In this document: in pieces, positions 41,801 through 44,800 of the stretch
How the letters are laid out: every line of letters begins with the position of its first letter
Numbering within the stretch: the first letter of the stretch is position 1
Assembly (NCBI RefSeq): GCF_057098645.1
Contig: NZ_CM169472.1
DNA: 64,000 bases
Reading direction: 5' to 3' (one strand)
Made by a program: the position numbers

Positions 41801-44800
41801 GTAGCCCCACAGACCCACACAGCCCGCAGTACCGATGATACCGGCAACCAGAGAGTCGGTTTTTTTCAGGAACGGGATGAAGTTACCCAGCAGATCTTGC
41901 AGCATAAAGCGGCCAGAACGGGTACCCGCATCCAGCGCGGTCAGGATGAACAGTGCTTCGAACAGAATACCGAAGTGATACCAGAAGCCCATGTCAGCCA
42001 TCGGCAGCACTTTGTGGAACACGTGAGCGATACCTACCGCCAGCGTCGGCGCACCACCTGCACGGTTCAGGACAGAAGGCTCACCAATGTCTTTCGCGGT
42101 TTGCAGGATCTGCTCTGGCGAAATCACGAAGCCCCAGGAGCTGACGGTCGCTGCCGCGTGTGCGGTAACGTCTTTCAGCTGCGCCATGATGATCGGCGCG
42201 TTCTCGCCACCCATTTCATGCAGGTTAGGCATGGTGATGCCAAGGCCCGCAGGCGGGGTGTTCATCGCGAAGTAAAGACCTGGTTCGATGATGGACGCAG
42301 CAACCAGCGCCATAATCGCCACGAAGGACTCCATCAGCATTGCGCCGTAGCCAATGAAACGCGCGTCGGTTTCGTTAGCCAGCAGTTTCGGCGTCGTACC
42401 GGAAGAGATCAGCGCGTGGAAGCCAGATACCGCACCACAGGCGATGGTGATGAACAGGAACGGGAACAGAGCGCCTTTCCACAGCGGGCCAGTACCGTCA
42501 ATGTACTGGGTCATCGCAGGCATTTTCAGTTCCGGGTTCAGCACCACGATACCCAGCGCCAGGCCGACGATAACGCCGATTTTCAGGAAGGTTGCCAGAT
42601 AGTCGCGCGGTGCGAGGATCAGCCACACCGGCAGCAATGCGGAAACAAACGCATAGCCAATCAGCGCGAAGGTAATGGTGGTGTCTTTAAAGGTCAGTGC
42701 CGGACCCCAGTACGGATCGTGAGCAATCACGCCACCGAAGTAGATAGAGGCAACCAGCAGCACGATACCAATAACAGAGACTTCACCCACACGCCCCGGA
42801 CGGATAAAGCGCATGTAGATACCCATAAACAGCGCAATCGGTACGGTTGAGCAAACGGTGAAGACACCCCACGGACTTTCGGCCAGGGCTTTAACCACAA
42901 TCAGCGCCAGAACGGCGAGGATGATGATCATGATTAAGAAACAGCCAAACAGCGCGATAGTCCCCGGTACTGGTCCCATCTCTTCTTTGATCATCTCACC
43001 GAGAGACGCGCCGTTACGGCGAGAGGAGATAAACAGCACCATAAAGTCCTGAACCGCACCGGCCAGCACGACCCCCGCCAGCAGCCACAGCGTGCCAGGC
43101 AGGTAGCCCATCTGTGCGGCGAGAACCGGACCGACCAGCGGACCAGCACCGGCGATAGCGGCGAAGTGGTGACCAAACAACACGTAACGGTTGGTCGGAA
43201 CGTAGTTCAGACCGTCGTTGTTAATAACCGCAGGCGTCGCGCGCGTGGGGTCGAGTTTCATCACCTTCTGGGCGATATACAAACTGTAGTAGCGATACGC
43301 CACCAGATACACCGACACAGAGGCGACCACGATCCACAGGGCGCTGACGTGCTCCCCCCGACGTAATGCAACTACCGCGAGGCAGAATGCACCGATGATT
43401 CCGAGAATCACCCAGGGTATGTGCTTGAATAGTTTTTTCGTATCCATAGTAAAACCTGGCATTTTACTCGTCGTCTTTTGGCTTACAGGTGCGGCAGCTG
43501 CGTTCGTTCACCCCTGTCACTTACTGTTGTAAGCTCCCGGTGATTCACTCACTTGCTGCCTTCCTGCAAACCAAAATCCATAGAGTAATTTGTTAATCAT
43601 AGGCCGAAGCCGTTCTAGGTTTGCGTTGCGTTTGAGGAGGTAAATTGACCGCTATCCTGCAGTGATGTTGCCAGAGATACGCGCGCGTAAAGTAAGGTAA
43701 ATAACTGAGTGGTTATTTTAGGGATGTAAGCGGTCAGGAATGGCGGTGAGCGGTTGGGCAAGAATTATTCATCGGGTGGATATGTGATTGAGATCACAAT
43801 AAAAATGCCCCTTCGACGAATACGTGAAGGGGCTGGAGCTTAAATCGCAGCTTCCATTTCCAGCATCACCGGATGGAAACGGCGTTTAAAGTAGATAAGT
43901 CCGTGACCTTCTGCACTGAGGATGATGTTTTTAATCTCCACCAGATACACCAGATGTGTGCCAATTGCCTGCACATCGCGGATCTCACCTTCAAGACTGG
44001 CCAGCGAACCTTTTAGCACCGGCTGCGCCAGCGGACCTTTTTGCCAGCATGAGAGGCTAAAACGCTCTTCCATCGCCATGCCTGTCATGCCCGCGAAGTG
44101 GCGTGCCATCAGTTCCTGCTCATGGTTGAGGACGTTGACGCACAACTTGCCGTTGCCCTGAAAAACCGGGTTCATCGCACTGTTGGCGTTAATGCACACC
44201 ATCAGCGATGGTGGTGTATCAGTGACCGAGCAGACGGCCGTTGCCGTAATCCCGCATTGTCCGGCGTCGCCCTCGGTGGTGATAATATTTACCGCTGCCG
44301 ACAGGCTGGCCATCGCGTCACGAAAGCGCAGGCGTTGTTCATCTAATTGCATCTTAACCTCCTGCTGCGTTATTTCAGCAGCTTATCCAGCATGTTGATA
44401 TCGTCGTTGTTGTGCAGGTGCGGCACAGTCCAGCCGTTCTGGTCGTATTCCGACAGGCAGCGATCAACCATCGCCATCATCTTGTCCATATTGCCGGAGC
44501 TTTGTGCCTGGCGCAGACACTGCAGGCGAATCTCATCCTGGCTACCGGAGTAGTTGATTTCATACAGTTCGTGACGACCACCAAATTCGCTGCCAATAGC
44601 ATCCCACATCAGTTTGAGGATCTTGATGCGCTGGACGTGATCCATACCGTTCGAACCGCGCACATACTTCGCCAGATACTGGTTGATCTGCGGGTTATTC
44701 AGGTCACGGGCACTGGAAGGGAGGTAGATCAGGCCACTGGTAACGTTGCGTTCGATAATGTTTTTGATCTTCGCGTAGGCCATTGGTGCCAGTACGCGAT

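What the first reader, a model, noticed from the sequence alone, without database searches (positions are those of the whole stretch)
43463..43839. Long btsT upstream region with LytTR-type direct repeats far from the start codon
Two ACCGCT(C/T)A repeats spaced about two helical turns apart lie about 280 bp upstream of btsT, followed by a TAAAAT -10 candidate. If this is the BtsR site, the transcript has an unusually long leader containing several GGA motifs (possible CsrA sites). The hpaC terminator is packed into the same interval.
Basis: partly seen in the sequence, partly recalled or inferred. Interest (0 to 1): 0.25.

Follow-up and report, generated by a model that had tools for sequence, protein, structure and literature searches.

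The report
BtsR operator displaced by ERIC insertion
The repeats are the already-known binding site of the pyruvate-responsive regulator BtsR (YehT) in front of the E. coli pyruvate transporter gene btsT, and they lie far from the start codon only because this strain carries a 126-bp ERIC repeat element in the gene's leader.

Summary
The window is E. coli, 100% identical to O145 RM9872. btsT (ATG 43447) and hpaC are both on the minus strand.

The two repeats are real: ACCGCTCA at 43754-43747 and ACCGCTTA at 43734-43727. The three form a 20/21-bp array that is conserved upstream of btsT in about 68 Enterobacterales loci. The M2-M3 stretch is identical to the K-12 "yjiY YehT binding site" oligo.

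A better -10 candidate is the extended element TGgCAACAT (43673-43665), which is near-invariant across genera. It predicts a transcription start near 43658.

The long distance comes from a 126-bp ERIC element (43588-43463) in the 5' leader. K-12 lacks it. It is present in about 38% of complete E. coli genomes, including BL21(DE3), almost always together with the hpa cluster.

GGA motifs are not enriched (5 observed, 4.1 expected), and three of the five are inside ERIC stems. The hpaC terminator and a perfect CRP site are confirmed.

Verdict: a known operator plus a known kind of repeat. It is ordinary. No mapped transcription start could be retrieved, so the start position is inferred.

The parts
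43840..44352 (-). hpaC (4-hydroxyphenylacetate 3-monooxygenase reductase subunit), the upstream gene; stop codon TAA at 43842-43840
   Evidence: ORF list; RefSeq annotation of the identical record
43801..43833 (-). hpaC intrinsic terminator: GCCCCUUCaCG-UAUU-CGuCGAAGGGGC hairpin followed by a UUUUU run
   Evidence: Fold gives -19.1 kcal/mol, z = -5.3. It is retained in Escherichia sp. MOD1-EC7003.
43783..43798 (.). Perfect CRP-type palindrome TGTGATCTCAATCACA, centred about -132.5 from the predicted start
   Evidence: Only match in the window, 0.03 expected. An exact TGTGA-N6-TCACA match lies at the same offset in K-12 and in about 30 of the other fetched loci. cAMP-CRP control of yjiY is published (PMC5431176).
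43747..43754 (-). M1, ACCGCTCA: first copy of the BtsR-type direct repeat (GCCGCTCA in K-12)
   Evidence: Fits ACCRCTYA exactly in 49 of 68 aligned loci.
43727..43734 (-). M2, ACCGCTTA: second copy, the best conserved
   Evidence: Exact in 63 of 68 loci. Identical to the K-12 YehT-binding oligo.
43715..43720 (-).
   Evidence: Sequence. In the aligned hexamer the second-position A is present in 6 of 68 loci.
43706..43713 (-).
   Evidence: Exact in 51 of 68 loci. Identical to the K-12 oligo.
43665..43673 (-). Predicted extended -10 element TGgCAACAT (inferred)
   Evidence: Column conservation across 68 loci: T 64, G 68, n, C 67, A 68, n, n, A 63, T 68. No experimental transcription start was available.
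43658..43658 (-). Predicted transcription start, +/- 2 nt (A of CAGGATAG); the leader would be 211 nt here against 88 nt in K-12 (inferred)
   Evidence: Seven nt downstream of the conserved -10 T
43602..43611 (-). Small GGC-UUCG-GCC tetraloop hairpin in the leader
   Evidence: RNAalifold consensus; the closing pair covaries G-C to A-U in 9 of 27 sequences.
43463..43588 (-). ERIC (IRU) element, 126 bp, an imperfect palindrome inserted in the btsT 5' leader and ending 15 nt before the ATG
   Evidence: - Absent from K-12 and from Escherichia sp. MOD1-EC7003.
- Hairpin of -58.4 kcal/mol, z = -8.4.
- Median 9 copies per E. coli genome; no annotated feature under any listed hit.
- Aligns end to end with the ydiJ-ydiK copy.
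- ERIC-PCR primer sequences match at 19 of 22 bases each.
43442..43459 (-). Translation initiation region CCAGGUUUUACUAUGGAU: Shine-Dalgarno AGG at 43457-43455 and ATG at 43447-43445, with a GGA overlapping the start codon
   Evidence: Invariant across 27 genera-level sequences. CCAGGU is predicted to pair with ACUAUGG. Predicted local pairing is the same with or without ERIC.
41297..43447 (-). btsT (yjiY), pyruvate/H+ symporter
   Evidence: ORF; RefSeq annotation

Best explanation
The interval is the ordinary btsT (yjiY) control region of an hpa-positive E. coli strain, read on the minus strand.

Order of elements:
1. The hpaC intrinsic terminator.
2. A perfect CRP site.
3. Three same-strand ACCRCTYA repeats (M1, M2, M3) at 20/21-bp steps, so all on one face of the DNA. 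[quoted passage not shown]
4. A promoter with a poor -35 and an extended -10.
5. The leader and the btsT coding sequence.

How it works: on pyruvate sensing by BtsS, BtsR binds the repeats and, together with cAMP-CRP, activates the promoter. BtsR and CRP control are published for K-12. The predicted -10 is TGgCAACAT, with the start near 43658. This puts the repeat centres at about -92.5, -72.5 and -51.5 (inferred).

Why the repeats are far from the ATG: a 126-bp ERIC miniature inverted-repeat element sits in the AU-rich linker of the 5' leader, just upstream of the Shine-Dalgarno sequence. It adds 123 nt relative to K-12.

The ERIC RNA is predicted to fold as a self-contained hairpin of -58 kcal/mol. 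Predicted pairing of the Shine-Dalgarno and AUG region is unchanged. The default expectation is therefore that ERIC is a passenger with at most a modest effect on mRNA stability. Any such effect is untested.
For: - Identity: 100% match to E. coli O145 RM9872, with hpaC and btsT annotated as here.
- Motifs: three copies and their spacing.
- Match to the known site: M2-M3 is identical to the K-12 oligo called 'yjiY YehT bs' and to K-12 genomic DNA.
- Conservation: the triple array and the CRP site keep fixed offsets across about 68 Enterobacterales loci. M3 starts at about -143 to -115 from the ATG in most loci without an insert, and at -266 here.
- Published regulation: BtsR, CRP and CsrA control of btsT (PMC5431176; PMC7730263; PMC5936718). 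BtsR motif conservation across gamma-proteobacteria (PMC5552118).
- ERIC: a 123-nt gap in K-12 at this exact spot. Dispersed repeat with median 9 copies per genome and no annotated feature under any listed hit. Strong palindrome. End-to-end alignment with the ydiJ-ydiK copy, with differing but still self-complementary arms. Core matches to the ERIC primers. TA flanks, as described for ERIC-type elements in PMC3184786.
- Promoter: the TGnCAnnAT columns are near-invariant in 68 loci, whereas TAAAAT, TACTTT and TATCTC are not.
- Modularity: mean unpaired probability of the initiation region is 0.41 with ERIC and 0.46 without.
Against: - No experimental transcription start for btsT could be retrieved. 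The primary paper, Kraxenberger 2012, is not held. The -10 and +1 assignment therefore rests on conservation only.
- The hexamer CAACAT is a weak -10, and -35 is poor. This is expected for an activator-dependent promoter but is not proof.
- The role of M1 is unknown. K-12 has G at its first position.
- Whether ERIC is neutral was not tested. ERICs in Yersinia transcripts alter mRNA decay (De Gregorio 2005, as summarised in PMC3184786).
Confidence: 0.85

Rival explanations
1. One reading: M1+M2 form the BtsR site and TAAAAT (43720-43715) is the -10. Transcription starts near 43708 and gives an intrinsically long leader of about 260 nt rich in CsrA sites.
For: M1 and M2 both fit ACCGCT(C/T)A and are 20 bp apart. 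TAAAAT is a fair -10 by sequence. CsrA control of BtsT synthesis is published.
Against: - TAAAAT lies in the spacer of the M2-M3 pair, inside the oligo used as the YehT binding site.
- Its second-position A is present in only 6 of 68 aligned loci.
- M3 would straddle the start site.
- K-12's M1 deviates (GCCGCTCA), yet K-12 is the strain in which the system was defined.
- 123 nt of the 'leader' is an ERIC insert.
- GGA motifs are at chance level.
Confidence: 0.04
2. Same operator, but the -10 lies further upstream: TACTTT at 43692-43687 or TATCTC at 43679-43674. The start would then be near 43680-43667. The transcript would include the conserved CUCUGGCA block, which pairs with UGCCAG at the Shine-Dalgarno region to form a long-range translational lock.
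For: The full-leader fold pairs GUAUCUCUGGCA with UGCCAG...GGAUAC. CTCTGGCA and CCAGG are both highly conserved.
Against: - TACTTT and TATCTC are poorly conserved as TAnnnT: second-position A is present in 36 of 68 and 33 of 68 loci.
- The conservation pattern of CTCTGGCAAGAT fits TGn plus a hexamer with invariant A at -11 and T at -7 better than an RNA helix.
- No covariation is available because both strands of the proposed helix are invariant.
- The UG of UGCCAG is not conserved; many genera have AACCAGG.
Confidence: 0.15
3. ERIC is not a passenger. As part of the btsT leader it changes expression, through RNase E processing at the element, 5' hairpin stabilisation, or titration of CsrA by its GGA motifs. 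ERIC-plus strains (38% of E. coli, including BL21) and ERIC-minus strains (K-12, O157:H7) would then have different pyruvate-uptake set points. This reading is compatible with the best explanation.
For: - ERIC elements inside Yersinia transcripts create RNase E sites and alter decay of neighbouring mRNA (De Gregorio 2005, via PMC3184786).
- The element ends 5 nt before the Shine-Dalgarno AGG.
- A different ERIC subtype sits at the same leader position in Citrobacter portucalensis.
- The allele is old: it is shared at 99% identity with E. albertii.
Against: - Predicted pairing at the initiation region is the same with and without ERIC.
- The three ERIC GGAs lie in or next to stems.
- No expression data exist.
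- Recurrent insertion can be explained by TA/AU-rich target preference alone.
Confidence: 0.25
4. The ERIC element carries its own outward promoter or a terminator, creating a second start or an attenuator for btsT.
For: Some miniature inverted-repeat elements carry promoters (PMC3184786).
Against: No sigma-70-like site or terminator-like site was found on either strand in 43300-44000. The hairpin is followed by GAGUAAAAUGCC, not a U-run.
Confidence: 0.03

Closest known systems
YehT (BtsR) binding site in the yjiY (btsT) promoter of E. coli K-12 (Kraxenberger et al. 2012 J Bacteriol 194:4272; oligo in Behr et al. 2016, PMC4847170)
   Same: Same gene and same operator. The sequence from TGACCGCTTA through ACCACTCAGTTA is identical. 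The CRP site and the distance to the promoter region are the same.
   Different: - M1 is a consensus ACCGCTCA here and GCCGCTCA in K-12.
- The sequence between the CRP site and M2 is strongly diverged.
- The upstream neighbour is hpaC with its terminator here, and divergent tsr in K-12.
- The leader is 123 nt longer here because of ERIC.
ERIC / IRU elements of Enterobacteriaceae (Sharples & Lloyd 1990; Hulton et al. 1991; Wilson & Sharp 2006)
   Same: About 127 bp, imperfect palindrome, conserved core, TA flanks, intergenic but within a transcription unit, multi-copy, with presence/absence polymorphism between strains.
   Different: Nothing structural. This copy sits in a 5' leader 15 nt from a start codon. 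I found no paper linking ERIC with yjiY/btsT in the searchable library.
ERIC elements in Yersinia transcripts (De Gregorio et al. 2005 J Bacteriol 187:7945)
   Same: An ERIC co-transcribed with a neighbouring gene and folding into a long RNA hairpin.
   Different: There, effects on mRNA decay (RNase E) were measured, mostly for copies downstream of genes. Here the copy is upstream of the coding sequence and no effect has been measured.
cstA leader regulated by CsrA (Dubey et al. 2003 J Bacteriol 185:4450)
   Same: A paralogous transporter gene, CRP-dependent, with CsrA repression of translation. BtsT synthesis is also reported to be CsrA-controlled.
   Different: No cluster of GGA sites was detected beyond chance in the btsT leader. 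Only two GGAs lie outside ERIC, one at the 5' end and one overlapping the start codon.
Other LytTR operators (YpdB at yhjX; AgrA, VirR, PlnC/D)
   Same: Direct repeats of about 9-11 nt separated by 11-13 nt, upstream of a weak promoter (PMC4847170).
   Different: Three phased copies rather than two are conserved at btsT. The repeat sequence is specific to BtsR.

Membership tests
BtsR (YehT) operator of btsT | Direct repeat ACC[G/A]CT[C/T]A with a 13-bp spacer (consensus recalled from Kraxenberger 2012; paper not held) | tested here: met
   M2 ACCGCTTA, 13 nt, M3 ACCACTCA at 43734-43706. M1-M2 has a 12-nt spacer.
BtsR (YehT) operator of btsT | Sequence identity with the DNA experimentally used as the YehT binding site in K-12 | tested here: met
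   The oligo 'yjiY YehT bs' (PMC4847170) is identical from CTGACCGCTTA to CAGTTA. The M1 part differs at several positions.
BtsR (YehT) operator of btsT | Located upstream of the btsT orthologue and conserved there in other Enterobacterales | tested here: met
   Found in most of the 80 fetched loci. Exact matches in the alignment: M1 49 of 68, M2 63 of 68, M3 51 of 68. Agrees with PMC5552118.
BtsR (YehT) operator of btsT | BtsR binding and pyruvate/BtsS-dependent induction in this strain | not testable with these tools
   Needs a gel shift, footprint or reporter assay. btsS/btsR are not in the window.
LytTR-type operator (general) | Two direct or inverse repeats of 9-11 nt separated by 11-13 nt (PMC4847170) | tested here: met
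   8-nt cores, 10 nt with conserved flanks (TGACCGCTTA, CAACCACTCA), and spacers of 12 and 13 nt.
ERIC / IRU element | Length of about 127 bp, forming an imperfect palindrome | tested here: met
   126 bp at 43588-43463. Hairpin of -58.4 kcal/mol against -29.9 for shuffles, z = -8.4.
ERIC / IRU element | Conserved central core sequence | tested here: met
   - 19 of 22 matches to each ERIC-PCR primer sequence (recalled from memory), adjacent and head to head.
- 76-84% identity over the full length to other genomic copies.
- End-to-end alignment with the ydiJ-ydiK copy.
ERIC / IRU element | Multi-copy, dispersed and extragenic | tested here: met
   43,673 places in 5,425 genomes, median 9 per genome; annotated features 'none' under every listed hit.
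ERIC / IRU element | Presence/absence polymorphism at an otherwise collinear site, with TA at both flanks | tested here: met
   Empty site in K-12 and in Escherichia sp. MOD1-EC7003. The flanks read ..AAT-TA-C.. and ..GAG-TA-AA. The TA flank feature is described in PMC3184786.
ERIC / IRU element | Lies within a transcribed region | tested here: inconclusive
   It lies between the conserved promoter elements and the start codon, so it must be in the btsT mRNA if the promoter is where inferred. No RNA data were available.
CsrA-regulated leader | Multiple GGA motifs, typically in hairpin loops, with one overlapping the Shine-Dalgarno sequence or start codon | tested here: inconclusive
   5 GGA observed against 4.1 +/- 1.9 expected (P = 0.38). 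Three are inside ERIC stems, one is at the predicted 5' end (Escherichia-specific; other genera have AGCAUAG), and one overlaps the start codon (AUGGAU, invariant).
Class of CRP-dependent promoters | TGTGA-N6-TCACA site upstream of the promoter | tested here: met
   Perfect match at 43798-43783, 0.03 expected in the window. Conserved at a fixed offset. CRP dependence is published.
Intrinsic terminator (hpaC) | GC-rich hairpin followed by a U-run directly after the stop codon | tested here: met
   Hairpin 43833-43807 plus TTTTT at 43805-43801.
Sigma-54 promoter (considered) | GG-N10-GC (TGGCAC-N5-TTGCA) conserved, plus an enhancer-binding AAA+ activator | tested here: not met
   TGGCAACATCACTGCA fits the spacing in this strain only. 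K-12 has CTACA and other genera differ. BtsR is a CheY-receiver plus LytTR protein (PMC5936718).

The most novel reading that the evidence does not exclude
The ERIC hairpin in the btsT leader is a functional post-transcriptional module. It might act as an RNase E entry or processing site, a 5' stabiliser, or a CsrA decoy. E. coli would then carry two long-lived expression alleles of its high-affinity pyruvate transporter: ERIC-plus linked to the hpa cluster (about 38% of genomes, including BL21 and the O145/O111 EHEC strains fetched here), and ERIC-minus (K-12, O157:H7). The AU-rich linker before the Shine-Dalgarno sequence would be a recurrent ERIC landing site, given the independent copy in Citrobacter portucalensis.
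Probability: 0.2. Interest if true: 0.4.

Novelty: already known. Interest (0 to 1): 0.15.

Why it matters
The practical consequences are modest.

1. Motif-to-ATG distance is a poor criterion for operator calls in enterobacteria, because ERIC-type inserts can shift a well-known site by more than 120 bp.
2. All published btsT/yjiY promoter reporters that I could see are built from K-12 DNA, which lacks the ERIC. They do not represent the leader present in about 38% of complete E. coli genomes, including BL21(DE3).
3. The cross-genus alignment points to a three-repeat operator and an extended -10 promoter. This gives a testable position for the btsT transcription start.

Tried and rejected
- **Experimental transcription start.** Kraxenberger 2012, Thomason 2015, Kroger 2012, De Gregorio 2005 and Wilson & Sharp 2006 are not held. 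Supplements of Conway 2014, Kim 2012, Ettwiller 2016, Mendoza-Vargas 2009 and Maes 2016 held nothing on yjiY or the coordinates. Text searches for yjiY with TSS, UTR or CsrA gave nothing usable.
- **Consensus promoter and terminator scan.** It found nothing in 43300-44000. It is too strict for an activator-dependent promoter and for a bulged terminator stem.
- **Rfam.** The only hit is RF02818 V_AS5 at 25 bits (gathering score 96), covering the ERIC hairpin. I take this as a generic ERIC-like hairpin match, not as a member of that family.
- **Sigma-54 reading of TGGCA-N7-TGCA.** Rejected, because it is not conserved.
- **GGA/CsrA enrichment.** Rejected as a signal.
- **Long-range pairing of CUGGCA with UGCCAG**. 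Kept only as a minor rival, because the block fits an extended -10 better.
- **ERIC changing accessibility of the initiation region.** No predicted change.
- **Strict linkage of ERIC with hpa.** True within E. coli (2,058 genomes with both; 2,062 with ERIC; 2,065 with hpaC). Not true across the genus.
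Full report
**Source and layout.** The window is E. coli. The 701 bases around the finding are 100% identical to E. coli O145 strain RM9872, and 5,383 of 5,426 complete E. coli genomes hold at least part of it. Both flanking genes are on the minus strand. hpaC is at 43840-44352. btsT (yjiY), the pyruvate/H+ symporter, is at 41297-43447, with ATG at 43447 as in the RefSeq annotation. Everything below is read on the minus strand.

**The observation.**
- ACCGCTCA (M1) is at 43754-43747 and ACCGCTTA (M2) at 43734-43727. They are 20 bp apart and begin 307 and 287 nt before the ATG.
- The degenerate motif occurs 11 times in the window against 5.8 expected. Three phased same-strand copies have a rough chance probability of about 4e-7.
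- TAAAAT is at 43720-43715, inside the M2-M3 spacer.
- The hpaC terminator is real: hairpin 43833-43807 plus TTTTT, -19.1 kcal/mol, z = -5.3.
- Immediately after the terminator lies a perfect CRP palindrome, TGTGATCTCAATCACA, at 43798-43783. It is the only such site in the window, with 0.03 expected.

**Identity of the repeats.** The K-12 oligonucleotide that the Jung laboratory used as the "yjiY YehT bs" reads CCTTTGCCGCTCAACCGCAAAACTGACCGCTTACATCCCTAAAATAACCACTCAGTTA (PMC4847170).
- It contains an M1-like GCCGCTCA, then M2, TAAAAT and M3.
- From CTGACCGCTTA onward it is identical to the window.
- The published consensus, as I recall it from the abstract of Kraxenberger et al. 2012 (not held), is ACC[G/A]CT[C/T]A with a 13-bp spacer. 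The G/A and C/T alternatives and the 13-bp spacer fit M2+M3, not M1+M2.
- BtsR, cAMP-CRP and CsrA control of btsT are published for K-12 (PMC5431176; PMC7730263; PMC5936718). Conservation of the BtsR motif in gamma-proteobacteria is also published (PMC5552118).

**Comparative anatomy.** I fetched 80 btsT loci from species-representative genomes of Enterobacterales.
- The triple array recurs with 20-21-bp steps.
- An exact TGTGA-N6-TCACA site lies about 44 bp upstream of M1 in about 30 of the fetched loci.
- In loci without an insert, M3 begins about 115-145 nt before the ATG in most cases. Here it begins at -266.
- In a 68-locus alignment, exact ACCRCTYA is present at M1 in 49 loci, at M2 in 63 and at M3 in 51.

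**Promoter inference.** No mapped transcription start could be retrieved, so I used conservation.
- The block CTCTGGCAAGAT aligns in all 68 loci. The column counts are T 64, G 68, n, C 67, A 68, n, n, A 63, T 68.
- That is the signature of an extended -10 (TGn plus a hexamer with the critical A at -11 and T at -7; established promoter knowledge).
- In the window this element is TGgCAACAT at 43673-43665. It predicts +1 near 43658, the A of CAGGATAG.
- On that numbering M3, M2, M1 and CRP are centred at -51.5, -72.5, -92.5 and -132.5.
- The leader is then 211 nt here, 88 nt in K-12 and 56-91 nt in other genera.
- The alternatives are much less conserved as TAnnnT. Second-position A is present in 6 of 68 loci for TAAAAT, 36 of 68 for TACTTT and 33 of 68 for TAACTC/TATCTC.
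- This assignment is inferred, not shown.

**Why the operator is far from the ATG.** Alignment with K-12 shows a 123-nt block present here and absent there. It lies between the AU-rich linker and the Shine-Dalgarno sequence. The block, 43588-43463, is an ERIC (IRU) element on these grounds:
- It is 126 bp and folds into a near-perfect hairpin of -58.4 kcal/mol, z = -8.4.
- It has a median of 9 copies per E. coli genome, and no annotated feature lies under any listed hit.
- It aligns end to end with the ydiJ-ydiK copy. The termini (TACTCTA...GACGAGTAAA) and the core are conserved, while the arms differ but remain self-complementary.
- The two ERIC-PCR primer sequences (from memory) match at 19 of 22 bases each, adjacent and head to head.
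- It has TA at both flanks, as described for ERIC-type elements (PMC3184786).
- The Rfam hit to V_AS5 (25 bits, far below the gathering score of 96) covers exactly this hairpin. I read that as a generic ERIC-like match.

**Distribution of the ERIC allele.**
- 2,062 of 5,426 complete E. coli genomes carry the ERIC-containing leader.
- About 2,065 carry hpaC next to btsT.
- 2,058 carry both. Within E. coli the two are almost completely linked.
- K-12, O157:H7 and O104:H4 lack both.
- BL21(DE3) has the same 392-nt intergenic region with 4 mismatches.
- Across the genus the two features separate. E. albertii has the tsr-type upstream flank but the same ERIC at 99% identity. Escherichia sp. MOD1-EC7003 has hpaC and its terminator but an empty site.
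- The few bases flanking the insertion differ consistently between filled and empty alleles in different species. This suggests two old haplotypes reshuffled by recombination.
- Citrobacter portucalensis carries an ERIC of a different subtype, with arms like the ydiJ-ydiK copy, at the same place in its btsT leader. That points to an independent insertion.

**The leader as RNA.**
- GGA motifs: 5 in the 217 nt from the predicted start through the first two codons, against 4.1 +/- 1.9 expected (P = 0.38). Three are in ERIC, in or next to stems. One is at the predicted 5' end (AGGAUAG), where other genera have AGCAUAG. One overlaps the start codon (AUGGAU, invariant). The sequence therefore gives no independent support for a CsrA-rich leader, although CsrA control is published.
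- ERIC-less leaders share a GGC-UUCG-GCC hairpin whose closing pair covaries, and an invariant CCAGGUuuuACUAUGG hairpin joining the Shine-Dalgarno sequence and the AUG.
- Thermodynamic folding predicts that ERIC folds on its own. The initiation region keeps the same predicted pairing: mean unpaired probability is 0.41 with ERIC and 0.46 without.
- There is no promoter-like or terminator-like site in or next to ERIC.

**Mechanism and confidence.**
- Shown or published: the interval holds the hpaC terminator, a CRP site, the BtsR operator, the btsT leader and an ERIC copy. BtsR and CRP activate btsT, and CsrA limits BtsT synthesis.
- Inferred: an extended -10 promoter with a start near 43658; all three repeats on one face of the helix upstream of a poor -35; ERIC co-transcribed as a self-contained hairpin.
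- Open: whether M1 contributes, and whether ERIC changes mRNA stability or translation. ERICs in Yersinia transcripts do (De Gregorio 2005, via PMC3184786).
- Confidence: 0.85 that "known operator plus ERIC insertion" is the full explanation of the finding; about 0.55-0.6 for the exact start position; about 0.2-0.25 that ERIC has a measurable regulatory effect.

**Novelty and score.** The operator is already known. ERIC is a long-known repeat family, and this copy is common in sequenced E. coli. I found no paper connecting ERIC with yjiY/btsT in the searchable library. That absence is weak evidence, because the main ERIC catalogue (Wilson & Sharp 2006) is not held. A specialist would not be surprised. 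Interest is 0.15.

Noticed in passing
L013:2362-2487 (Citrobacter portucalensis btsT leader): A second ERIC of a different subtype, with arms resembling the E. coli ydiJ-ydiK copy, sits at the same AU-rich linker just before the btsT Shine-Dalgarno sequence. Other Citrobacter species lack it. This suggests recurrent insertion at this spot.
   Followed up: partly
window 43602-43611 (minus strand): A small GGC-UUCG-GCC tetraloop hairpin in the leader is conserved across genera. Its closing pair covaries G-C to A-U in 9 of 27 sequences.
   Followed up: partly
window 43442-43459 (minus strand): CCAGGUuuuACUAUGG: the Shine-Dalgarno sequence and the start codon are predicted to pair with each other. 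The sequence is invariant in 27 sequences, so there is no covariation test. In longer folds CCAGG instead pairs with CCUGG at codons 11-12.
   Followed up: partly
window 43630-43642 (minus strand): The CU-rich block UACCUCCUCAAAC, which resembles an anti-Shine-Dalgarno sequence, is conserved in many genera of the btsT leader. Its function is unknown.
   Followed up: no
window 43467-43585 (minus strand): The Rfam family RF02818 (Vibrio RNA AS5) matches the ERIC hairpin over the full model length at 25 bits, E = 0.004. That family may itself be an ERIC-like repeat.
   Followed up: no
window 43658-43673 (minus strand): TGGCAACATCACTGCA has sigma-54-like GG-N10-GC spacing in this strain. K-12 has CTACA, and other genera differ. 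I judged it to be chance.
   Followed up: yes
window 43649-43656 (plus strand): ACCGCTAT is an inverted near-copy (6 of 8) of the BtsR motif at the very start of the predicted leader (AGGATAGCGGTCAA on the minus strand). It is only partly conserved; other genera have AGCATAGCAGTCAA.
   Followed up: no
window 43747-43800 versus L001 (K-12): The stretch between the CRP site and M2 is strongly diverged between the hpa-linked and tsr-linked haplotypes, while M2 through the UUCG hairpin is nearly identical. The first base of M1 is A here and G in K-12 and E. albertii.
   Followed up: partly
L083 (RM9872) and L085 (BL21(DE3)) annotations: In both RefSeq records one locus-tag number is skipped between hpaC and btsT (I3Y_RS27090, ECD_RS22275). 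This may be a withdrawn small ORF call in the ERIC region.
   Followed up: no
literature (PMC5389530): yjiY was the most up-regulated gene (log2 4.76) in a poly(A) polymerase (pcnB) mutant of E. coli. This hints that btsT mRNA level is strongly shaped by RNA decay.
   Followed up: no
E. coli genome hits H104, H105: Some genomes match only the terminator-plus-CRP part of the interval (query positions 85-141), with no annotated feature under the match and no match to the hpaC 3' end. These may be remnants of an hpa deletion.
   Followed up: no
L046:4843-4905 (Pseudocitrobacter faecalis): An ERIC-like copy lies downstream of btsT, on its 3' side, in this species.
   Followed up: no
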